A stretch of 64,000 nucleotides of DNA, taken from NCBI GenBank assembly GCA_963693365.1, contig CAVNZM010000015.1, positions 1,302,001 through 1,366,000 of the forward strand, written 5' to 3'. The translations under genes and the position numbers were made by a program. This DNA is from Amoebidium appalachense (Eukaryota; Protista; Ichthyosporea). The notes beneath the pieces are model-generated. The model did no database searches, was not told where the DNA came from, and was given only the letters and a program-made list of their open reading frames with translations. This document shows, piece by piece, positions 4,114 to 62,445 of this stretch (the first letter of the stretch is position 1; the number at the start of each line of letters is the position of its first letter).

Positions 4114-5226
4114 ATGCTTCCGCGCCTTCTGGCGGTTTTCGCCGCCGTGATTGCGGGCACACAGACCGCGTCAGCGACCACGTGCAAAGACCAATGCGCC
4201 CTCCTGCAGAGCAAGCACCCCTGGGCGGACTGTGCGGCCCAGTGCACGTCCACGCCCAAGATGTGCGTCGGCATCTGCGGCTTTAACGTGGCTGGCCTGC
4301 AGGCCCGCGACAAGAACTTCAAGTTCACCCCCACCCAGGTCAGAGCAATCAAGCAGTGCACCTCCACCGCATGCAGCAGCAAGAAACACAAAGCATACTA
4401 TGGTAAGGCAGTGCCTATTTACCGCCCCGCACGCCGGAAGTCCCACTATCTATGGCCACGGGACGCCGATGCCTATGATGGTTATCTCGACAGGCCCCTC
4501 GTCGACCATAGTGCAGTTGCCAAGCATTTTGGGGAGGGTATTGCCATTATAGGCAAGGCCGTGGCGCGGCGCTCGGCTGAACTCGCTGAGGTCCGTGCGG
4601 CGGCGGTGGAAGGGGGCAAAACTGCGGGTGTCCGAAGAGACTCGTCTTATTATCCGTATGTGGGCGGCGGAACTGCCCTCCCCCCCCTGAACTCAAATTC
4701 TGTTCCCTACACTGGTGCCACCACGACTAACCCGGGCACCTACACTGGTGTTAACTCTGGCCTGCAGCCCTATCAGCCCTACACTGGTATTAACACTGGC
4801 CCGACGCCCTACACGAGTATTAACACTGGCCCGGCTCCTGATACTGGTGCCACCTCTAGCACACTCACTCGGAGAGCCACGAAGGCAGCTGCAGGCCTCT
4901 ATGGAGACGCTGCACTCTCTTCCTTGTTCCCCGACGTCATTTTCCCCTACGCTGGTATCAACACTGGCCCGGAACGCCCCATTGAGAGAACCCGTGTAAA
5001 TGGTCGCATCCCTCCCATGGACTACTACAGTGGTGCCATCATTGGTGTCGGGCCCATGCAGAGAGTCTCACCGGGAATCGATGATGATAACCTTCCGCAC
5101 CCCATCATAGGAACTGCCGCGGCGCTGCCTCTGAAGGCGCGCTATTATGGAGGGCGACGACATGGCAAGCGTCGCCTTCGCAAGAACCGCAATAATCTGG
5201 GCAAAAAGTCTGACGATGAATGGTAG
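4114..5226 (+). CDS. Secreted Cys-rich precursor-like protein, paralogue 1 (370 aa, intronless), unknown family
   Basis: Open GC-rich ORF without microsatellites. Signal peptide MLPRLLAVFAAVIAGTQTASA; 8-Cys module (CX3C x3, CX4C); basic Tyr-rich linker; PYTG(V/I)NTGP repeats; basic C-terminus ending DDEW. Close paralogues at 10310 and 18747. Confidence 0.85.
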   Translation: MLPRLLAVFAAVIAGTQTASATTCKDQCALLQSKHPWADCAAQCTSTPKMCVGICGFNVAGLQARDKNFKFTPTQVRAIKQCTSTACSSKKHKAYYGKAVPIYRPARRKSHYLWPRDADAYDGYLDRPLVDHSAVAKHFGEGIAIIGKAVARRSAELAEVRAAAVEGGKTAGVRRDSSYYPYVGGGTALPPLNSNSVPYTGATTTNPGTYTGVNSGLQPYQPYTGINTGPTPYTSINTGPAPDTGATSSTLTRRATKAAAGLYGDAALSSLFPDVIFPYAGINTGPERPIERTRVNGRIPPMDYYSGAIIGVGPMQRVSPGIDDDNLPHPIIGTAAALPLKARYYGGRRHGKRRLRKNRNNLGKKSDDEW

Positions 5227-8805: not shown

Positions 8806-10309
8806 CCCCGCCGAGTCCCCCAAACTTATATGCATATGTACATGTACTGCGCCCTCCGGCCGGTGCCATATGATCGTGACGGTCAAGTAGACGCTGGCTA
8901 TTTCCTTTTGCTCTCCTTTTCCTCCCCTTCCCCCCCCTCCCCCCCCCCCCTCTCCCCCCGGGGCCCCTCCACCCCCCCCCCCCTCCCCCTTTGTTTGGTA
9001 AAAAGAAAACAATCAAACTGCTACACGTGAACCCCATCTTAACGGCCGGCGCTAGCCTGAGCATGCCACCTGTCGGTCGTTGGTCGTGGCGTGCACGGTG
9101 GCACTGCAGTGGCACAGGTGCACATCATGCCATTATTGGCAACTTGCCAATGTACCGCCAGAGATCTCGAGATTCGCCCGTGTGACGCGGGCGCCCATGG
9201 AGCCATCACCTCTAATATTTTGTATGTGTAGGTGCTGTGTACTCATAGACCAAGTTACCAGCACTATGTAGTTGAGTTTGGGAGACTATTGAGTTTGTGT
9301 TTGCCATTCAGTCACGGAGTTTCGAGGGCCGGGTCCGGAGGGTCGGGGTCCGTTCAGCCGCTGGGCGGAACACAGCTTTATCCTCTGGTATGCGATTGTG
9401 TGGACGCCTTGCCAGTGCCACCATGCAACTTGTTTTGCAGACACTGCAAAGCACACGTGCCCTTTCAGTTGGGCGTTCTAAAAGCATTTCAAGTTGGAGA
9501 ATGGCATTGTTTTTTTCAACGCCTAGGCATTATTAAGTTTAGAATAACGTGGTTGTTACAGTAAACAATACCTGTCTTTTTATTCATCCCTGTACATTTG
9601 TATATATATGTAGACCGGGTCCTGTAGATTCCTGTCGTGGCCCCACATTCCCGAGGTAACAACTTCACAAGGCTCTTCACAAGCTCATTTTATACCGATG
9701 TTACATTCACAAAAGATCATTTTTTCTGTCACTAATATATGTTACCTAAATGCTTATGTTCGAGTTTACTATCATCAGAAATTGGTTTGTAGAAAGAACA
9801 GTCCTGCAGGCATCATGCCAGTAACTGGCTGTTAAACTGTGATTACTACTAACCTTTTATGGTTAACCACCTACCAAATATAGCGCGTAGATAAAACCGA
9901 CTAATTATGATTGGTAATTTTTAGCCCATGGTATGCATGCAAATCCGCAGTTAAGATTACGTGCAATGACGACATTTGTTTTTATTGTTTGTTTTGCGGT
10001 ACATGTGCACCCCATTTTACCTATATTGCTTATCTTTTGAAGTTTGTGATTAAAAAAAGGAACACGCTATAATCGGATACTCTGAGTTCAGAACACAGAC
10101 GCCGAACTGTAAACACCGAAGCAAATTACTTTATTCCTGACACAGAGTTGGAAGATTTTCGACCAAAACAATCTTACTTGTGGACAAATGGGTTTATAAG
10201 CTCGAAACATCAAACAATCTGTTCATTTGACCATTCAGATCGCAACACAAACAATCACGGTCGACCTCCAACACCACTTTACACAGGTTGCCTAACACTT
10301 ACCCGCACG

Positions 10310-11590
10310 ATGCTTCCGCGCCTTCTGGCGGTTTTCGCCGCCGTGCTTGCGGGCACACAGACCGCATCAGCCACCACGTGCAAAGACCAATGCGCCCTCC
10401 TGCAGAGTAAACAGCCCTGGCCGGACTGTGCGGCCCAGTGCACGTCCACGCCCAAGATGTGCGTCGGTATCTGCGGCTTCAACGTGGCTGGCCTGCAGGC
10501 CCGCGACAAGAACTTCAAGTTCACCCGCTCCCAGGTCGGAGCAATCAAGCAGTGTACCTCCACCGCGTGCAACTTCAAGAAGCCCAAAGCCTACTATGGA
10601 AAGGCAGCGCCTATTTACCGCCCCGCCCGCCGTAAGTCCTACTATGCGGAGCCGCGGGCCCGGTATGATGCAGCTGCCAAGCAGTTTGGGGAGGGCATTG
10701 CAGCCATCATCGGTATCATAGGCGAGGCAATAATGGGCGGGGCTGAAGTTGCCGAGGTCGGTGCGGTGGCGGCAGAGGGGGCCGAGATGGCCGGTGAGGT
10801 GAGTGAGATCGCCGGTGAGGTGGGCGGCCTTACCGAGGGCGGGGCCGAGGGCTTCGTTGATTCAGCAGAGGGTTTGCGTCCGGGCGAAGCTGGCCTAGAG
10901 AATGGTGCATCTGAGATGGGGGCCAGGGACGTCCAAGAAATCACAATGGAGGAATTGGCCCGCGGTGGCAGCCCCCAGGAGATATCGGAGCGCATAGCAA
11001 ACCGCATGGCTGGGGAGATTTCGGGTGATGTTCCGGGTCTTGAAGAAGAATCGGGCTCCATAATATCAGAAGGGGAACGACCCGCCGAAGTGGGAGCGGA
11101 CTCCGGCTGGTATGAGCCCAGGGATATTCAATCCGTCATGCAGGAGGCAATGGCCGAGGGAGGGTCACCCCAAGAAATAACGCAGCGTATAACGGAACGG
11201 ATGACAGAAATCGCACAAGAGGCGGCACAGCCTAGGTTCGGCGCGGCTGGCGTCGGTGGTAAAAATCTCAACTGGGACGATATGGGTGTAGTTATTACGG
11301 GCCCTCCCTCCATCTCGAGTAATACTCTTCCCTACGGCATCGGCCCTGTTCTCCCCCCCCGGGACTCCATTGTTCCCTACACTGGTGTTAACACTGGCCC
11401 GGGGCCCATCGAAAGAACCTCGGGAGTCGATGAAGATGAATTTCCGTACGTCGAGCCAATCATAGGAACTGCGATTCCTCCAAAGGCGCGTTATGGTGAT
11501 GAAGGTCAACGACAGAACAATGCAAAGTTTCAGCGCCGACTTCGCAAGAACCGTAACAATCTGCATAAGAAATATGAGGATGAGTGGTAG
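10310..11590 (+). CDS. Secreted Cys-rich precursor-like protein, paralogue 2 (426 aa, intronless)
   Basis: True start ATG at 10310, matching paralogue 1 (the TTG-start extension in the track is not supported). Same signal peptide and 8-Cys module; acidic Gly/Ala/Glu-rich middle with two GGSPQEI repeats; C-terminus RRLRKNRNNLHKKYEDEW. Confidence 0.88.
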   Translation: MLPRLLAVFAAVLAGTQTASATTCKDQCALLQSKQPWPDCAAQCTSTPKMCVGICGFNVAGLQARDKNFKFTRSQVGAIKQCTSTACNFKKPKAYYGKAAPIYRPARRKSYYAEPRARYDAAAKQFGEGIAAIIGIIGEAIMGGAEVAEVGAVAAEGAEMAGEVSEIAGEVGGLTEGGAEGFVDSAEGLRPGEAGLENGASEMGARDVQEITMEELARGGSPQEISERIANRMAGEISGDVPGLEEESGSIISEGERPAEVGADSGWYEPRDIQSVMQEAMAEGGSPQEITQRITERMTEIAQEAAQPRFGAAGVGGKNLNWDDMGVVITGPPSISSNTLPYGIGPVLPPRDSIVPYTGVNTGPGPIERTSGVDEDEFPYVEPIIGTAIPPKARYGDEGQRQNNAKFQRRLRKNRNNLHKKYEDEW

Positions 11591-14034: not shown

Positions 14035-14370
<336 letters not shown>

Positions 14371-14522
14371 TATCATTGACCCTGCAGTCGATCGCGGAGA
14401 CTGCACCGTGACTACAAATATTTTCGTTCTATAAGGCTAGATTTGCCCCCCCCCCCCCCCCCCCCCCTCCAATACCTCCCCCCCCCCACGGGCATCCCCC
14501 CCCCTCCCCCCTCTCCCTCCCT

Positions 14523-14626
<104 letters not shown>

Positions 14627-14670
14627 ACATACACAACACACGCCGTCACGCACACAGTGTCACGCGCGCG

Positions 14671-14723
<53 letters not shown>

Positions 14724-14824
14724 TTGCTGTACACGTGTATACGTAGATGCATGGCAAGTGTAGTTTGTGTCTGTTTGTGTTTAGCTTTGTGTTCGTGTGT
14801 GCTCTTTTTCTTCTTTCCCCCTCT

Positions 14825-14894
<70 letters not shown>

Positions 14895-15220
14895 TCTTCT
14901 TTCGTGTGATCGTGTGCACAGATATTAGTGTAGATCTGTGTACACGGCTGGGCCACCTGGCCCCGTAGATCTGGTCCTTAGATATTTGTGATAAAAGTGA
15001 ACGAGCAGACATATCTTGGAATTCGAGTGAATGTCTCGTTTGCATTGTTTGTCTTATCTTGTTTGCCTTAGCTGATTGGTTCTGTGTTGTGTCATGCCGT
15101 GTGATACGTGCCAGGTTTGTCTGTCTCACGTGTCACGTGTCTGTGGTTTTCAAGCGGGAGGAGGCAGCGATGACAGACGAAGATCCACCGAGTGGCATTG
15201 CGGTGAGGTGATTGGTTATT

Positions 15221-15299
15221 TGTCATGCATTAGTTGTGTTGGATTGCTGGTTTCCTTCTGTTTACAAGACAGATGCTTTACCATTAAGCTACACGTAAC
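15221..15299 (-). pseudogene. trnT-UGU: tRNA-Thr(TGT)-like, T-arm degenerate
   Basis: Minus strand: TA GCTT AATGGTA AAGC A TCTGT CT-TGT-AA ACAGA. D arm and anticodon arm pair perfectly; T arm is unrecognisable. Confidence 0.65.
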
Positions 15300-15313
15300 A
15301 CTAGCCATATATA

Positions 15314-15387
15314 AGTTGATAGTAGGACTTCAACCTACAACCAGTGCATTAGAAGTGTACTGCTCTATCCTATTGAGCTATATCAAT
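15314..15387 (-). tRNA. trnR-UCU: tRNA-Arg(TCT), slightly degenerate
   Basis: ATTGATA TA GCTC AATAGGATA GAGC A GTACA CT-TCT-AA TGCAC TGGTT GTAGG TTGAAGT CCTAC TATCAAC. Full cloverleaf with two stem mismatches, T-loop TTG instead of TTC, no encoded CCA. Confidence 0.8.
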
Positions 15388-15401
15388 TACCTTTGGTGTA
15401 A

Positions 15402-15474
15402 TAGGGATTGCAGGACTTGAACCTACAGCCGTAATCTTATAAGGAGTATGCTCTACCAATTAAGTTAAATACCT
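15402..15474 (-). tRNA. trnI-UAU: tRNA-Ile(TAT), intronless, slightly degenerate
   Basis: AGGTATT TA ACTT AATTGGTA GAGC A TACTC CT-TAT-AA GATTA CGGCT GTAGG TTCAAGT CCTGC AATCCCT A. Canonical T-loop; single mismatches in the acceptor, D and anticodon stems. Confidence 0.8.
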
Positions 15475-15489
15475 CTATCCTATTCGCAC

Positions 15490-15563
15490 CTTTTCAGATA
15501 GGACTTGGACCGAAAACCATTAACGTGACACGTTAATGCTCTAACCAATTGATCTACTTACAC
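15490..15563 (-). pseudogene. trnD-GUC: tRNA-Asp(GTC)-like, acceptor stem degenerate
   Basis: TA GATC AATTGGTTA GAGC A TTAAC GT-GTC-AC GTTAA TGGTT TTCGG TCCAAGT CCTAT. Perfect anticodon stem; acceptor and T stems eroded. Confidence 0.7.
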
Positions 15564-15992
15564 TATTCTTAATTAACATCGTACTAGATTCCTTACTCCA
15601 TATATAGTTAGTGTAGTTTGGTTTTGATTGCATGTTCTGATTTGGTCAGATTTTGAAGCATTTGATTGGTTACTTCAGTCTGGCTTCAAATTCCAAATGC
15701 ATCGTGGGAACGGGTATAAAAGGGAGTACATGTCGTTTGGATTTCAGTCTTTGGTTTTCGTCTTAGCTTTTGTGTGAGTAGCTGGCATCAGAGGCAAAGG
15801 GATTTGTAGAGTTAGTTGGTTGAACTAAGTTTGGTGGTGCTAGTGTAAAAGCGCACAAACTAGTTGCCTTAGCTAGCTGTCCTTTTTCCTGTTGATTTAC
15901 CCGCCCTCCCAGCCCTGTTGTGGGGATAGATCAAGGGGTGTCCTTGGCCATTGCGCGTTAGTTTAGGGACACTGTTTCCTTCTTTAGGGTAG

Positions 15993-16032
<40 letters not shown>

Positions 16033-16033
16033 A

Positions 16034-16086
<53 letters not shown>

Positions 16087-16899
16087 GCACACACACACAC
16101 AGTACGTGCACTAACATGCACGCACACACACCATAGTTTTCATGGTTCGCTAGATGTCAATTAACTGTTATTCGTACATACTCTTTTAGAGTATTTAGTT
16201 TTATTCAAAAAAATAAACTCCCGTACTTGCTTCTGATTTCATGTCCATGAGTCTCGATGAGCCACGACGGTAGCGAGAAATGGTCTTGCCTCCAGCACGT
16301 GTTTTCCCCGTGTTTTTGTTTTATCAGGAACTCACGGACCTAGCTTGGATCGTTTCTAGTTGCTTTTATCTTGTGGTATGTTCTTTATCGGCTCTGGCAT
16401 GCATCCGACGCCAGAAGTAGTTTCCTATTGGTCGTTAGTGGATTTAGATGTTTGATATCTAACGTAGCGCGAGTTCGAGTTCGTATCAACGAGTAAATAT
16501 ATTTGTAGTTAGATTTCAGTAATGAAATTAATATAAATATATGTACGAGTTGTACAAGTGAGAGATAAATAATAGTTTATTATTTCTGAGCTGTCTTATT
16601 ATTTTTCATGTTGTGAGAGAGTTGTTTTAGCTGAATAGCGTGGTTTCTATTTTTAACGTCTGGTATGTACACGGATGCCAAAGCTAGTTTGTGATTGGCT
16701 GTCGTGTCAAGATGTCATAGACGTTGAACCGTGCCCTGCAGAGAAAAAGGTCGTCGTCGTCGAGTAATGAATTCAGTTGTTGTTTGCTATGAATCGTGTT
16801 ACAACTCCGTCTACAGTCTCTCATGTGTGTTCCTCTGTTGTGTTCCGTCACAACAACACTGTGCACTCTGTTAGGTACCGCTCAGTCACATAGTATTCT

Positions 16900-17150
<251 letters not shown>

Positions 17151-18318
17151 CCACCACCACCACCGTGACCACTCTCCCCTTCCCCCCCCCCCCCCCCATC
17201 GCCCTCCCCCTCCCCTCCCCCCTCCCCCCAACCCCCCAACCCCCCTCCCCCCCCCCCCCCCCCCCCCCCCCCCCCTTCCCCTTTTCTCTTTTTTTGTGAA
17301 AAGAAAATAATCAAAACGCGCCACGTGCCGCACACCTGTCAAGGCTACTAGAGTACAACTGTGCCCTGCGCATCATCACCGTACGCGTCTGGCTGTCGCG
17401 GAGTCAGGACACACTATTGTACACATGCAGAAGAATGGCTGCTGCTAACTAACTCATGATATGGGCATCCTCGTGAGCCCGTCAACAGAGCCTTCAAAAG
17501 TTTGTATATGTAGGTGCTAGACTAAGTTTTGCAGCTCAAGTCAAGCTTGCAGAACGAGTTTGGGAGGCTATGTACCGAGTCAGTGTGTTTGCCGTTCAGT
17601 TGAGGTACATGTGAGCATCGGATTACGAAGGGCTGGACTGTAGTGTTGGGGCCGTTCGGCGGAACACAGCTTTATCCTCTGGTATACGATCGCGTCACTT
17701 CGCGCGGACGCCTGCCAGTCATAAGTGCCGCCAAACAAACAACGCACAGTATACGACGGCACACATGCCCTTTCATATGGACGTTGTCAGAAGCGTTTCG
17801 AATTGAAGGAAGTCATTGCCTTTTCAACGGCCAGAAATATATACAATGAACAATGTTGGGCTTTATTTCATTTCAGTACAGACAGAGTCAGAAGAGAAGT
17901 TGTCTATTTCGAGCTCCCAGCCTCTCCCGACCTGCGCAGGAATTCCGGAACTTCGGAAGGTTGTTTCGTAGGCACTGCACATGCATTCGAGTAACAGCCG
18001 AGCAAGCTCAGTTTGTAACGATGTTACATACGCAGGAAAGCACGTTTTCTGTCGTTAAAACATATGTTTTCTAAAAGCTTATGAAGTACTATATTGTTTT
18101 GTGGAAACTATAGTCCTGCAGGCAGCGCCGTGGCCGTTTACTGGCTTTCAAAGCTGGATTCCTGCGTTCAGAAAGGTGAAAATACCAACCTTTTATGGCT
18201 AGCCACCTGCCATATATAGCGCATGGATAAAACGGACAATTTTGATTGGAGAACATCAACAGATTTTTACCCCATGGTATGGCTAATCCACAGTTAAGAT
18301 TATTGCAGTGTGTATGTA

Positions 18319-18746: not shown

Positions 18747-19912
18747 ATGCTTCCGCGTCTTCTGGCGTTTTTCGCCGCCGTGCTTGCGTGCACACAGACC
18801 GCGTCAGCGACCACATGCACAGAGCAAGCACCCCTGGGCGGACTGTGCGGCCCAGTGCACGTCCACGCCCAAGATGTGCTTCGGCATCTGCGGCTTCAAC
18901 GTGGCTGGCTTGCAGGCCCCCGCGACAAGAACTTCAAGTTCACCCGCCCCCAGGCCGCAGCAGTCAAGCAGTGCACCTCCACCGCGTGCAACAGCAAGAA
19001 AAAGCCCAAAGCCTACTATGGCAAGAAAGCGCCTATTTACCGCCCCGCCCGCCGTAAGTCCTACTATGCGGAGCCGCGGGCCTGGTATGATGCAACTGCC
19101 AAGCAGTTTGGGGAGGGCATTGCAGCTATCATTGGCACCATAGGCGAGGCAATAGCGGGCGGGGCTGAGGCCGGGGCGGCGGCGGCAGGGGGGGCCGAGA
19201 TTGCCGGTGAAGTCGGTGGCATTGCCGAGGGCGGGGCAGAGGGCTTCGCAGATTCTGCAGAGGGTTTGCGTCCAAACCAAGGTGGCCTACAATACGGTGG
19301 ATCTGAGTCAGCTGCCAGGGACATCCAAGAAGCCACGATGGAGGAATTGGCGCGGGGTGGCAGCCCCCAGGAGATATCACGGCGCTTAGCAAACCGCTTG
19401 GCTGGGGAGATTGCGTTCGACATCCGGAAGTGGAACGACCCCCCGAAACGGGAGCGGAATCCGCGGGAAGGTATGAGCCCACTGATATCCAATCGGTCGT
19501 GGAGGGAGCAATGGCTCAAGGCGGGTCACTCCCAGAAATAGCGCAGCGTATAACGCAAGAGCTAGCAAACCGCTTGCAACTGGGGAGATTGCGTTCGACA
19601 TCCCGGGCCTGGAAGAGCCGGAAGTGGAACGACCCCCCGAAACGGGAGCGGAATCCGCGGGAAGGTATGAGCCCACTGATATCCAATCGGTCGTGGAGGG
19701 AGCAATGGATCAAGGAGGGTCGAGTCTCCCAGAAATTGTGCAGCGTATAACGCAAGAGCTGGGCGCGATGGCCGAAGTCTTGGCGCCAAAGCCTAACAGC
19801 GGTGGAAAAAGCTTCGCCTGGGGCGAGGTGCATGGATTTGGGAAATACAGGCCCCGGCCCCATTACTCCAGACAACGCTTACCCTTTTCCCTATGGCATT
19901 GGCCCTGTTCCC

Positions 19913-19947
<35 letters not shown>

Positions 19948-20165
19948 ACTCCATTGTTCCCTACACCATGGCGTTCATGGCCCGGGGCCCATCGAGAGAA
20001 CCTCGGGAGTCATAGATGATGAATTTCCGTACGTCGAGCCAATGATAGGAGCATTGAATTCCTCCAAAGGCGCGCTATGGTGATCATGACTCCGGGGCGA
20101 CGACAGAACCGCCGCATTCGCAAGAACCGCAATTATCTGCGCAAGAATATGAGGATGAGTGGTAG
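18747..20165 (+). pseudogene. Secreted Cys-rich precursor-like gene, paralogue 3, frameshifted
   Basis: 20-nt deletion after TTC and a +2 insertion near 18917 (net in-frame); further frameshifts near 19425 and 19578; internal ~190 bp duplication; C32 expansion 19914-19945; ends ...YEDEW* at 20165. Confidence 0.85.
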
Positions 20166-20959
20166 GGCCCTGAGCGTCGGGTTAAGAGAATCTTAACTGT
20201 ATAACTGAATATATATATATTGTAGATATACCGGAGGTCTTTATAGGTGCACCCTCGGTTGAGATTCAAATATTCGAATACTGTGCTCCGCTCTGAAATT
20301 TAACACTAGGGTAGCGGGACACAGCAGTTGTACACATATTTATGAGTTGCAACTAATAGACCTTTCATGTACGGTAATGTTCTTCGGCTTAATGGTGGTG
20401 GGTTTGTATATCATGGCCCGGATGCTTGGAAGAGCTATACGCATGAGTGCCAAAACCTCCAATAATTATGATGATTTTGGTAGTAGATTTAATAAAACCA
20501 TATCGCCCTATGGTGGTCGAGTCACAGCATATGCACATGAACACGCACACTGTACACCGTCCTTGGCACACACACACACGCATACCACACACACACGCAC
20601 ACACACACGCACACACGCACACACGCACACACGCACACACACACGCTCGCACACGCACAGTGATCACACACACGCACACGCACGCGCACGCACACACAAA
20701 CACATGCACACACACAATATCCTATGTGTGTTGTGGAAGGGCCTGATCGGCCTACGTCCACACATTTTGGTTGGGGGGAGGGGGGGGGGGGAGGGGGGAA
20801 GGAAGAGGGGGGGAGAGGGGGGGGGTGGGGTGGGGGGGGGGGGGGGGGGGGGGGGGGCACACGGAATCCACATCCACCCCTGCGCACACAACACAGCACA
20901 TACCGGCCCCCACCCACACCGCACATACAAACACAAACACAAACACAAACACAAACACA

Positions 20960-22492: not shown

Positions 22493-41179
<18,687 letters not shown>

Positions 41180-45129: not shown

Positions 45130-51273
<6,144 letters not shown>

Positions 51274-59258: not shown

Positions 59259-62200
59259 TTGAAGGGTTGTTTCATGATTTTTTCCAGGCTGAAACGAAGC
59301 TATCACAGCCTGCATCATATGCGCGGATTTAGCGGCGCACCGTTTCCAAGAATTCGAGCAGAAGAGTCTACAGTGATTTGCGAAACACAGTTTAAAAACC
59401 ACCACAAATTCAACTCTACATTGGTCGACACATCCACACACCCCGGTTACGCGAAAAACCGAGGCATTATTGTACTTGCCGCACCACACGTGAGAGTGAA
59501 GTGCAAACCGGTAGCAAAAACGGAATTCTCGGTTTCTATAGAGTTTCTTTCTAATGTTTTTACTTTTGTATATTACCCACCATCTATGTCGGTTGTCGAA
59601 TTGACTCACGAGTTGTCACAGTTACCAATGTCCACTGTTATTTTAGGTGATTTTAACACGCGACTCCACCACACAGACACACTGCAAGTGAGTGTCGGGT
59701 ACCCATCTAAGCCCCCGGAGCGTGCTATCCCTTTAGCAAGGTATGTCCAAAGTCACACTTTGCGGTTCCCTCAAATATCCCATGCCCACAACACCGACTG
59801 GGGAGTGGCCTTTTGGCCATCAACCATGTCAAAACTCTCTCTCCCTCCTAACCTCTCTAGGTCATCTGACCACTCTCCTATCCTTTTCCTACCTAAGATC
59901 TCCCTTGATCTGCTCCCCCCTCCCCCTCCCACCTTTCGCCTCCGTCTATCCCAGCTTAAGTCACAGTGGGGTAGAGTTGATGTATGTGTATGCTATGCTA
60001 CGAAACACCCTATATATATGCGCCTATTAGAATCTGCACAAGCCAGGCCAGATTCACATCTCGTACTAGATACATGCACTAACTTTATTGTTGATGATTT
60101 GATAGATCTCGGTGATTATGCTGGCGGTGGTAGGAAGGAATACCCCGATGCTCTCTTGTTACCAAACACCACTCCCGCTAGACTAGGTGAACCCCTGTCT
60201 CAAAAGGAAAGCTTGCGCCGGCTTGCTAGTATGAATCGATTTGGCCCCCCTGCTCGTATTATTGGTGATACCACTGGAGACCCCCTCATAGACTCTGATA
60301 AGTATTTCTCGGAACTGTTTAAAGATAGGACCCCCGCTCAGAAACCTATTGTGTGGCCTGTAGACCCATCTATCCCCATAGAATCGATCCTCCCCTTTTT
60401 CAGTCCCGATGCCATATGGTCTGTGATATCTAGTTATAGCTCTAGTAAGTCTTGTGGACCTGATGGACTCCCTGCTGGGTTTCTTAAAATCCTTGTTCCC
60501 TCCTACCCACAAAAGGAAAGTGATCGTGCTATTAAACCTGATCTTACTATCATGTTAAGCTCTCTCTTTTCTTGGTGTGTTAAATGTGGACATGTCCCGT
60601 CATCTTGGTTAGATACCTTAGTGATCCCCATAGTTAAGAAGGACTCTGAGGGCCCCATATCATCCTTTCGCCCCATTACACTAACCCAGGTTGTTCGTAG
60701 ATTCTTTGAAGCTTGCTTACTTAGGTTATTTGCACATCACCCTAGGTTTCAATCTATTCTTCACATACACCCATGCCAATCCGCTTTTCGTAAAAACAAT
60801 TCATGTTATGTTCAAATAATGGCACTGCACGATTCTATGCAAGTTGGTGCACAATATGTTGGCTTTATTGATTGGAAAACTGCTTACGATTCTGTCTACC
60901 CTGGTCTCCTATGGGAAAAGCTTGCTGCACGGGGTGTACCACACTGCATTGGTGTTCTGTTAGAAGCACTCTTGTCTCAAACCTATGGTAGAGCTGTGGT
61001 TAATGGGCATCTTTCATATGGTTTTGCTCGTACTAGAGGTCTCTTGCAGGGTTCATTGCTTAGCCCCTTTTTGTTTAACCTATTTATAGATGATTTGGCT
61101 GTCAAGATTTACGCCGAAAACGATGACCCTATTAATAACTTTCCGCCTGCACTTCTCTATGCTGATGATCTGTCCCTCCTTGCCCGTACCCCTAGACGCC
61201 TGCAAAGATTGTTCGATGTAGTGTCAGAGTGGTGCAAGGCAAACCTTATGATCCTTAACATAGACAAATGTGGTGTTCTTGTACCTGATATAGCTAACAA
61301 TTTACACACATTTACATTATCATCTAAACCTGTACCTATAGTTCCAGAATACAAATATCTTGGTGTTCCGGTTGATTCTGTTGGTGTTATGTTTCCCCAT
61401 ATGGTCGAAAAGAGGGTAGAGTTGGCTCGTAAGCGGTTAGCTTTCTTCTCGGCTAATATTTTTAAAGACACACCCCTCCATCCTTCTATTAGACTTACAT
61501 TTATTCGCACTTTTGTCTTCCCGGCATGTGAATATGGTTTACCCCTTCTCGCCGCTTGGATCAAGAAAGAGAGAACTAGAGCGCTTAAACCCTTGGCAAA
61601 TTTCCTTGAAGCAGAAGTTGCCTCCTTTCTATCTAACAACTGTTGTAAACCTGGGCCTGTAACGCTCTCGATATATGGTCTGGTCCCAATAGCTGCTAGA
61701 GTATCCTATCTCGCGCTGAAATTCAATAAGCACATAAGCCGCTTAAAGAAGTATTTGCCCTCCCACCCTCTCTTCTCTATCCGACCTGTCCCCTCCTCAC
61801 CTCTCCCCTCTTTCCTCCCCTCTCTCTCCCCTTCTCCCCTGGGCACAAATACAAATAAACCCCGCAATAGTGTGTGTGTGACTTTGGACTGCCACTTACT
61901 TATTAAACATGTACACAATCACAAGATAATCACGCAATATAACAAATGGAAAAAGATACCACACGACACTAGACCCGATGAAAGCATACACCTTGAAAAA
62001 CTAAGCCTTATGTCTCGTTTTATATATACTGACCGCCTCAACCATATTGCCAAATATGGCACTCGCAAGTGTATAACACCTAAATACATATTACCTTCCT
62101 GTAGAACTGGTCTTTCTCTAGCTGATGGTATTATTGATCAATTACCACGCTTTTACTGTACACGTGCTATACAGTGGAGATCTAATAAGTATAAGGTGGC

Positions 62201-62445
62201 ATCATTTGCATGCCCAAACAACACACACACACACCAGTTTAACCGGTCATGTATCGCCAAATGTAGTTTGATAGACCACATAATACCGCAACACACACAC
62301 GTCACATTCACAACAGACACCCAGAAAGATAGCCTACCTGTAAATTACAACATCCTTGATTTTATACTAAACACGCGTAACTACGACCTGTTTATTAGAT
62401 GTATTGATTGGCTTGAGAAACACATCACTACAAAATTATAGCGCA

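What the first reader, a model, noticed from the sequence alone, without database searches (positions are those of the whole stretch)
15221..15563. Hidden array of four foreign-looking tRNA genes (Asp-GTC, Ile-TAT, Arg-TCT, Thr-TGT)
Seen: four head-to-tail cloverleaves on the minus strand with regular 14-15 nt spacers, AT-rich, no introns, no CCA, no oligo-T terminators between them, and scattered stem-breaking changes. The array sits in a segment missing from the sister duplication units. Known: such tight packing is typical of mitochondrial, bacterial and giant-virus (Nucleocytoviricota) tRNA clusters rather than nuclear Pol III genes; Ile-TAT is rare in bacteria but occurs in giant-virus clusters. 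Inference: a captured viral or mitochondrial fragment, or a tRNA-array module carried by a mobile element. It is invisible in the ORF track.
Basis: partly seen in the sequence, partly recalled or inferred. Interest (0 to 1): 0.78.

Follow-up and report, generated by a model that had tools for sequence, protein, structure and literature searches.

The report
Decayed mitochondrial-type tRNA insert in repeat
A 341-base piece carrying four damaged tRNA genes sits inside a nuclear repeat of the protist Amoebidium; it is likely an ordinary stray fragment of mitochondrial DNA, and its eye-catching "Ile-TAT" gene likely arose from a valine tRNA by one anticodon change.

Summary
The tRNA-like sequences are real. 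Rfam passes 3 of 4 at the gathering score. None is a clean cloverleaf: Thr lacks its 3' half and the "Asp" looks like an Asp/Asn mosaic.

The host is Amoebidium: the window's LINE is 99% identical to a named EukProt protein.

Public contigs show the array is an insertion between two TCC copies in a multicopy repeat. The empty site reaches depth 987 in X1 against 42 for the filled junction, so the repeat does not spread the array.

The same runs hold high-depth, AT-rich tRNA clusters about 92% identical and collinear over Val-Arg. Their letters repair the stems (second tRNA 18/21 to 21/21 pairs). They read TAC (Val) at the "Ile-TAT" position, and a near-identical CAT paralog lies in another cluster. 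A trnM/trnI/trnV recruitment family is reported for Amoebidium's fragmented mtDNA (PMC7027106).

No giant-virus support was found: no collinear viral cluster, no viral Pfam domain in the window, and 37% GC.

Best reading: a decayed NUMT (0.8). The mitochondrial identity of the source is inferred, not aligned to annotated mtDNA. Ordinary.

The parts
15256..15596 (-). 341-bp AT-rich insert carrying the four tRNA-like sequences (likely NUMT)
   Evidence: Joint 15252->15597 'skips 344', 3 letters fitting both sides, in X3, X4 and X17; junction sequences; filled right junction bridged by an identical contig 15535-15633 at depth 42 in X1 (record 7)
15253..15255 (+). left TCC direct repeat (target-site duplication or microhomology)
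   Evidence: junction print; empty-site loose ends after 15255 in X1, X2, X8, X10
15597..15599 (+). right TCC direct repeat
15490..15563 (-). tRNA-Asp(GTC)-like pseudogene, likely a mosaic: middle (15501-15543) matches a high-depth Asp copy; 3' end is collinear with a high-depth tRNA whose upstream letters read as Asn(GTT)
   Evidence: records 16, 17, 11, 12 and loose ends at 15518 and 15543 (read by eye); 15/21 stem pairs; Rfam 22.1 bits
15402..15474 (-). 'Ile(TAT)' pseudogene, likely derived from tRNA-Val(TAC)
   Evidence: Row 15439; stem pairs 18/21 in the window, 21/21 with the collinear high-depth letters
15314..15387 (-). tRNA-Arg(TCT), best-preserved copy, one window-specific anticodon-stem break at 15346
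   Evidence: 19/21 to 20/21 pairs
15256..15305 (-). 5' half of tRNA-Thr(TGT) (acceptor 5' strand, D arm, anticodon arm), cut at the insertion border, with 7 extra bases near 15292-15298
   Evidence: alignment; table 4 ('15291 left out 7') and loose ends before 15255; sequence print
15143..15252 (.). left part of the interrupted multicopy nuclear repeat
   Evidence: X17 record 8 (2545 nt) covers 15143-15252 then 15597-15705; depth 987, 115, 10.5 and 86 in X1, X2, X10, X8
15600..15900 (.). right part of the interrupted repeat (outer end approximate; family not identified)
   Evidence: depth profile and records 8, 28, 29

Best explanation
This is likely a NUMT: a 341-bp piece of a tRNA cluster inferred to come from Amoebidium's multi-chromosome mitochondrial genome, inserted between two TCC copies in one copy of a nuclear repeat and now decaying. 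Shown: it is an insertion at a defined site, with empty sites at about 20 times the depth of the filled junction in X1. Shown: closely related, better-paired tRNA clusters exist at high depth in the same organisms' runs, and they read Val(TAC) where the window reads TAT. Inferred: those clusters are mitochondrial. Inferred: the piece entered during double-strand-break repair by end joining, leaving a 3-bp repeat and a truncated Thr. Inferred: the Asp/Asn mosaic arose by recombination between look-alike tRNA genes, before or during capture. Inferred: the nuclear copy makes no working tRNA.
For: Host: LINE ORF 99% identical over 66% of the query to P0001, labelled Amoebidium parasiticum in EukProt. 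Insertion: joint skipping 344 in 3 of 4 runs (X1 shows it as loose ends); empty-site loose ends in 4 of 4 runs. Source: contigs collinear over 15314-15518 with 16 other letters in 205 in X2 (depth 85) and X10; X1 record 6 at depth 391, against 42 and 58 for window-like contigs. Summed depth over the array against a low-depth flank: about 8,600x in X3, 740x in X4, 6x in X1. X2 and X3 are listed as the same sample, yet cluster-to-repeat depth is 0.74 in X2 and about 300 in X3 (170,426/558), so the source does not scale with nuclear repeats. Decay direction: source letters repair stems (18 to 21 of 21; 19 to 20 of 21). Anticodon: in X1, X2 and X10 the depth not reading TAC (1009, 72.4, 19) equals the depth reading CAT; X8 and X17 are all TAC. 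Literature: A. parasiticum mtDNA is over 200 kb in several hundred linear chromosomes with at least 25 tRNAs, and recruitment is suggested among trnM, trnI, trnV, trnT, trnA (PMC7027106, passages). Demosponge mtDNA encodes bacterial-like tRNAs including trnR(ucu) (PMC2444032, passages).
Against: No annotated Amoebidium mtDNA could be aligned and no laid contig links the clusters to a mitochondrial protein or rRNA gene, so 'mitochondrial' is indirect. In X1, X2 and X10 the cluster-to-repeat depth ratios are similar (0.40-0.74 and 0.63-1.81), which a nuclear multicopy source would also give. Library types are not on record, and the tool warns that summed depth is no copy number. No single high-depth contig spans all four tRNAs in the window's order; the one collinear over Val-Arg has Asn upstream and does not continue into Thr. 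No high-depth source was laid on 15565-15596. A third Val/Met-like paralog in records 12 and 17 is listed with 0 other letters. I read this as an overlap artefact, so its anticodon is unknown and could be TAT.
Confidence: 0.8

Rival explanations
1. The high-depth clusters are themselves nuclear and multicopy (older amplified NUMTs or a tRNA-array repeat), and the window's insert is a secondary copy of them.
For: Cluster depth follows the nuclear repeat within about 2-3x in X1, X2 and X10. Other low-depth contigs share the Asp-mosaic-Val arrangement: X1 record 5 (134 nt, depth 65, 13 other letters) and X3 records 18 and 19 (depth 8-10). The high-depth Arg also seems to keep a 1:72 mismatch and an odd T loop (no rows at those places).
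Against: In X3 and X4 the clusters exceed the repeat by about two orders of magnitude while X3 records 18 and 19 stay at flank depth. The high-depth Val copy pairs 21 of 21. This reading still needs a mitochondrial or bacterial-type ancestor.
Confidence: 0.09
2. The insert is a relic of a giant virus or another persistent extrachromosomal element that carries AT-rich tRNA clusters.
For: Amoebidium carries many giant-virus insertions (PMC11244446, passages). Depth that varies strongly between runs would also fit a replicating virus. Tupanvirus and Yasminevirus do cluster tRNAs (PMC11946776, passages).
Against: 5 exact-pattern scans of 2.9 million viral contigs: 4 found nothing and 1 found 2 loci. 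These match only Arg, 87% over 61 nt, in a different gene order. No viral Pfam domain among 52 non-repetitive frames of 90 aa or more in the window. The viruses reported in Amoebidium are near Medusavirus and Clandestinovirus; medusavirus tRNAs average 63% GC and are dispersed, against 37% GC and tight packing here. 'tRNA' occurs 0 times in the main text of PMC11244446. The TAT anticodon that prompted the idea is absent from the collinear source copies.
Confidence: 0.06
3. The insert and its high-depth relatives come from a bacterial endosymbiont or culture companion.
For: The tRNAs look bacterial in type and are tightly packed, and best phage-database hits are bacterial-type tRNAs at 73-84% over short stretches.
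Against: 0 exact matches for two motifs in 185,579 bacterial and archaeal genomes. The source has near-identical Val and Met paralogs and tRNAs in several different contexts, which fits the reported mtDNA better.
Confidence: 0.03
4. The array is a functional or actively mobilised nuclear tRNA module carried by the surrounding element.
For: It lies inside a multicopy element. Arg still passes ARAGORN.
Against: Filled junction depth 42 against 987 for the repeat in X1. Window-specific changes break stems. Thr is truncated. Three of four sequences fold no better than shuffles (z 0.82, 0.35, 0.23); the first has z -2.29 but not as a cloverleaf (folding alone is a weak test for tRNAs).
Confidence: 0.02

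Closest known systems
NUMTs (nuclear mitochondrial DNA segments) and nuclear mitochondrial-tRNA lookalikes (PMC4189335, PMC7722341; search listing and start of abstract only)
   Same: Short organelle-type fragment at single-copy depth, sharp junctions with a 3-bp repeat, cut through a gene, stem-breaking decay relative to a high-depth source.
   Different: The source genome is split into hundreds of chromosomes, and the insert is a mosaic of at least two source clusters rather than one collinear stretch. It sits in an intergenic repeat; no host intron around it was seen.
Amoebidium parasiticum mitochondrial tRNA clusters (GenBank AF538045/AF538046) and the trnM/trnI/trnV/trnT/trnA recruitment family (PMC7027106, passages; Burger 2003 and Lavrov & Lang 2005 known only through citing papers)
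   Same: Same genus; clustered AT-rich tRNAs; near-identical Val(TAC) and CAT-anticodon paralogs seen in the high-depth contigs.
   Different: Sequences could not be compared directly. The window copy is decayed, reads TAT, and its Asp-Val-Arg-Thr order was not found on one high-depth contig.
Giant endogenous viral elements (GEVEs) of Amoebidium (PMC11244446, passages)
   Same: Foreign DNA inserted in the same genus.
   Different: GEVEs are gene-bearing regions from a Medusavirus/Clandestinovirus-related lineage. This is 341 bp with no protein gene, no viral marker nearby, and AT-rich tRNAs.

Membership tests
NUMT | Lies in nuclear DNA | tested here: met
   Flanked by microsatellites, a nuclear repeat, a spliced CH-domain gene and a LINE; filled junction at single-copy-like depth 42 in X1
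NUMT | Is an insertion with an empty site | tested here: met
   Joint 15252->15597 in X3, X4, X17; empty-site loose ends in X1, X2, X8, X10. These are empty paralogous repeat copies, not necessarily the orthologous allele.
NUMT | Homologous to a higher-copy sequence of the same organism and decayed relative to it | tested here: met
   16 other letters in 205 against contigs at 391 (X1) and 85 (X2); stems repaired by source letters
NUMT | That source is the organism's mitochondrial DNA (alignment to annotated mtDNA or linkage to mitochondrial genes) | not testable with these tools
   No genome held; no mtDNA collection; only indirect signs (depth behaviour, Val/Met paralogs, literature)
NUMT | Collinear with one source stretch over the whole length | tested here: inconclusive
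   Collinear over 15314-15518 only; Asp middle and Thr match other contigs; piece tables were cut (898 and 50 pieces not shown)
Giant endogenous viral element (Nucleocytoviricota) | Viral marker or virus-type protein genes in or beside the insert | tested here: not met
   No protein gene in the 341 bp; 0 viral Pfam families among 52 frames scanned; frames under 90 aa and repetitive frames were not scanned
Giant endogenous viral element (Nucleocytoviricota) | Sequence similarity to viral tRNA clusters | tested here: not met
   4 of 5 viral scans empty; the fifth gave 2 loci matching Arg only, in another order. Exact-match scans are insensitive to distant relatives.
Functional tRNA gene cluster | Intact cloverleaves | tested here: not met
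   15/21, 18/21 and 19/21 stem pairs; Thr lacks T arm and 3' acceptor strand
Functional tRNA gene cluster | Mature tRNA made from this locus | not testable with these tools
   Only contigs were available; no raw RNA reads
tRNA-Ile(UAU) gene | TAT anticodon present in the intact source gene | tested here: not met
   Collinear copies read TAC; the remainder reads CAT in X1, X2, X10. One further paralog has hidden letters, and 8,500 of 143,128 depth in X3 is unresolved.
Mobile-element cargo | Filled element amplified to many copies | tested here: not met
   Depth 42 across the filled right junction against 987 on the repeat in X1; the other three runs of that call had no cover there

The most novel reading that the evidence does not exclude
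The insert and its low-depth sister copies preserve a mitochondrial chromosome arrangement (Asp/Asn hybrid, then a TAT-anticodon gene, Arg, Thr) that recombination among Amoebidium's hundreds of mitochondrial chromosomes has since broken up, with TAT a once-real Val-to-Ile(UAU) recruitment rather than nuclear decay. A bolder, less likely form: the high-depth clusters belong to an unrecognised persistent element of Amoebidium.
Probability: 0.12. Interest if true: 0.45.

Novelty: new member of a known kind. Interest (0 to 1): 0.15.

Why it matters
As a NUMT it matters little: such fragments are common in eukaryotic nuclei (general knowledge). It has two modest uses. It warns that a rare anticodon in a decayed copy can falsely suggest a giant-virus origin in a genome that does hold many viral insertions. 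It also points to public contigs from which the partly sequenced, fragmented Amoebidium mtDNA, its Val/Met/Ile recruitment family and inter-chromosome recombination could be studied. My one search for 'NUMT' with 'ichthyosporea' listed 3 papers, none on Amoebidium NUMTs by title or start of abstract; that is not proof that none is in print.

Tried and rejected
No whole genome is held, so copies elsewhere in the assembly could not be counted. Multi-tRNA patterns found nothing in viral contigs or metagenomes. The Arg motif gave 2 viral loci and 1 metagenome locus with the same unrelated tRNA set and 0 in bacterial and archaeal genomes. Thr, Val/Met/Ile and Asp motifs gave 0. Distant blastn against phages gave 308 records, none covering 80% of the query, best 14%. 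No RNA holder was listed; X17 is only guessed to be RNA, so expression was not assessed. I laid 7 of the 24 listed runs (X1 twice). No cover of 15575-15625 in X2, X8 and X10 is not taken as evidence. Homology searches with the duplicated neighbour gene and the first CH exon found nothing. Repeat search in 14890-15975 and 16125-16900 gave no terminal repeats that would name the host element. Burger et al. 2003 is not held. The supplement of PMC7027106 is a slide file that cannot be read here and may hold tRNA data bearing on the Ile anticodon. 'Amoebidium' + 'uau' + 'mitochondrial tRNA' gave 0 papers. Earlier findings: nothing by place, sequence or the first word search; the second word search listed 8 unrelated findings, not used. 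I rejected the literal reading of '0 other letters' for the third paralog: depth is counted once per record at overlapped places (row 15406), and the same pattern appears for other overlapping pieces (X1 record 4 and X4 record 27).

Full report
Observation. The minus strand of 15229-15563 holds four tRNA-like sequences. Rfam gives RF00005 hits of 56.9, 47.7 and 33.9 bits for Arg, 'Ile' and Thr, and 22.1 bits (below the gathering score of 29) for Asp; these three are the only gathering-level Rfam hits in the whole window. ARAGORN finds Arg and Ile by default and adds Thr in mitochondrial mode. 0 of 500 shuffles of the region gave a tRNA call. The array is therefore real, but none of the four is a perfect cloverleaf: 15, 18 and 19 of 21 stem positions pair in the first three, and Thr has only D and anticodon arms. 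The stretch from 14369 to 17289 has no counterpart between the matching anchors of sister unit 1.

Host. The window is microsatellite-rich eukaryotic DNA with a spliced calponin-homology gene and an intact LINE ORF. The LINE protein is 99% identical over 66% of its length to P0001, which EukProt labels Amoebidium parasiticum. I take the host to be Amoebidium (Ichthyosporea) and leave the species open.

The array is an insertion in a repeat. No genome was held, so I used public runs: 24 listed, 7 laid, all as contigs. In X3, X4 and X17 a joint skips 344 bases from 15252 to 15597 with 3 letters fitting either side; X1, X2, X8 and X10 show the same empty site as loose ends. Both junctions carry TCC, so the insert proper is 15256-15596. 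In X1 the repeat has depth 987 and a contig identical to the window bridges the filled right junction at depth 42. X1 may be the window's own source material, so this shows the junction is in reads but is not independent support. The element is not spreading the array.

A high-depth source exists. Contigs collinear over 15314-15518 differ at 16 of 205 letters in X2 (896 nt, depth 85) and X10 (923 nt); the matching X1 piece has depth 391. A second cluster (X2 846 nt, X10 852 nt, X1 depth 1009) holds the Asp arm, a paralog with anticodon CAT and a third paralog whose letters the table hides. Summed depth over the array is about 8,600 times a low-depth flank in X3, 740 times in X4 and 6 times in X1. 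X2 and X3 are listed as one sample but differ about 400-fold in cluster-to-repeat depth (0.74, against 170,426/558). That fits organelle DNA whose yield depends on the library. Against this, the ratios in X1, X2 and X10 are similar to each other, library types are unknown, and the tool warns that summed depth is no copy number.

'Ile-TAT' is likely a mutated Val-TAC. At 15439, the third anticodon base, contigs reading TAC make up 1540 of 2549 depth in X1, 152 of 224 in X2, 41 of 60 in X10 and 131 of 131 in X8, and 134,628 of 143,128 in X3, 131,574 of 131,619 in X4 and 126 of 126 in X17. In X1, X2 and X10 the remainder equals the depth of the CAT paralog. The source letters also take this gene from 18 to 21 of 21 pairs and Arg from 19 to 20, which sets the direction of change: the window copy is the decayed one. 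Both spacers beside the gene are collinear with the Val cluster. Near-identical Val and Met genes are what PMC7027106 describes for A. parasiticum mtDNA (recruitment among trnM, trnI, trnV, trnT, trnA; passages). The hidden third paralog could be a true TAT gene; this stays open.

The insert is a mosaic. Upstream of Val, the collinear high-depth contig continues into letters that read by eye as tRNA-Asn(GTT), while the window's GTC arm matches the other cluster (loose ends and records 16, 17). The first tRNA thus likely joins an Asp middle to an Asn 3' end, which explains why collinear letters do not repair it (15 of 21 either way). Low-depth contigs with the same Asp-Val arrangement exist (X1 record 5; X3 records 18 and 19), so there are probably sister nuclear copies. 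Arg-Thr adjacency without the window's 7 extra bases appears at depth 4967 in X4 and 78 in X1. Thr stops at the junction, and other contigs continue there with T-arm-like letters.

Viral and bacterial origins. Of 5 exact-pattern scans of viral contigs, 4 were empty and 1 gave two loci that share only Arg, at 87% over 61 nt, in another order. Two scans of bacterial and archaeal genomes were empty. No viral Pfam family appeared among 52 frames of the window. The viruses reported in this genus are near Medusavirus and Clandestinovirus; medusavirus tRNAs average 63% GC and are dispersed (PMC11946776, passages), while this insert is 37% GC. Exact scans miss distant relatives, so these are weak negatives.

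Mechanism. Most likely a fragment of a mitochondrial tRNA cluster was captured at a break in one repeat copy and joined by end-joining repair (inferred from the 3-bp repeat and the cut gene; general knowledge of NUMT formation), then decayed by point changes. It is predicted to be silent and functionless. The step I could not test is direct alignment to annotated mtDNA.

Verdict. Real feature, ordinary class: a likely NUMT (0.8), new member of a known kind, interest 0.15. Papers were read as passages (PMC4558845, PMC7027106, PMC11244446, PMC4860592, PMC8303319, PMC11286789, PMC2518934, PMC11946776, PMC3268669, PMC2444032) or search listings. Burger 2003 and Lavrov & Lang 2005 were not seen, and an unreadable supplement may bear on the Ile anticodon.

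Noticed in passing
window 15314-15387 and its high-depth relatives: The high-depth Arg(TCT) copies seem to keep the window's mismatch at acceptor pair 1:72 and a G in place of the usual T-loop C (no difference rows at these places). They may be degenerate themselves or need 5' acceptor-stem editing, as recalled for Acanthamoeba and chytrid mitochondria.
   Followed up: no
window 4114-5226, 10307-11590, 18747-20167: Three tandem single-exon paralogs with a signal-peptide-like start and a Cys-rich N-terminal part; no Pfam family and no homolog at E <= 0.001 for the second copy. The third copy is broken by frameshifts and an internal duplication near 19387-19760.
   Followed up: partly
window 59259-62441 (+): Open 1060-aa LINE-type reverse transcriptase ORF, 99% identical to a transcript-derived EukProt protein; next relatives are at 46% and 34%. 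Likely a young, lineage-specific family.
   Followed up: partly
window 45130-48050 (+): Spliced gene with tandem calponin-homology exons (filamin or alpha-actinin type, recalled label), with microsatellite-filled introns.
   Followed up: no
window 15143-15252 and 15597-15900: Unidentified multicopy repeat; a 2545-nt contig of X17 ends in it and continues past 15705 into unrelated letters, so it may be the terminal part of a larger element.
   Followed up: partly
runs X8 and X17 over window 15319-15518: A more diverged version of the Asn-Val-Arg cluster (27 other letters in 165; 30 in 200) at depth 80-90, sharing changes between the two runs: a second paralogous cluster.
   Followed up: no
runs X1, X2, X10 over window 15255-15294: The Thr D and anticodon arm has higher depth than any full cluster (249 against 4-19 in X10; 204 against 72-85 in X2), so it may be repeated on several source molecules.
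   Followed up: no
L001 857-933, L002 4810-4886, L003 5857-5933: Related viral or metagenome contigs carry a tRNA with a CTA anticodon (ARAGORN 'Pyl'), possibly an amber suppressor of a recoded phage.
   Followed up: no
window 30274-30747 (-): Weak sub-cutoff AAA ATPase Pfam hit (E 0.0094), possibly an exon of a host gene.
   Followed up: no
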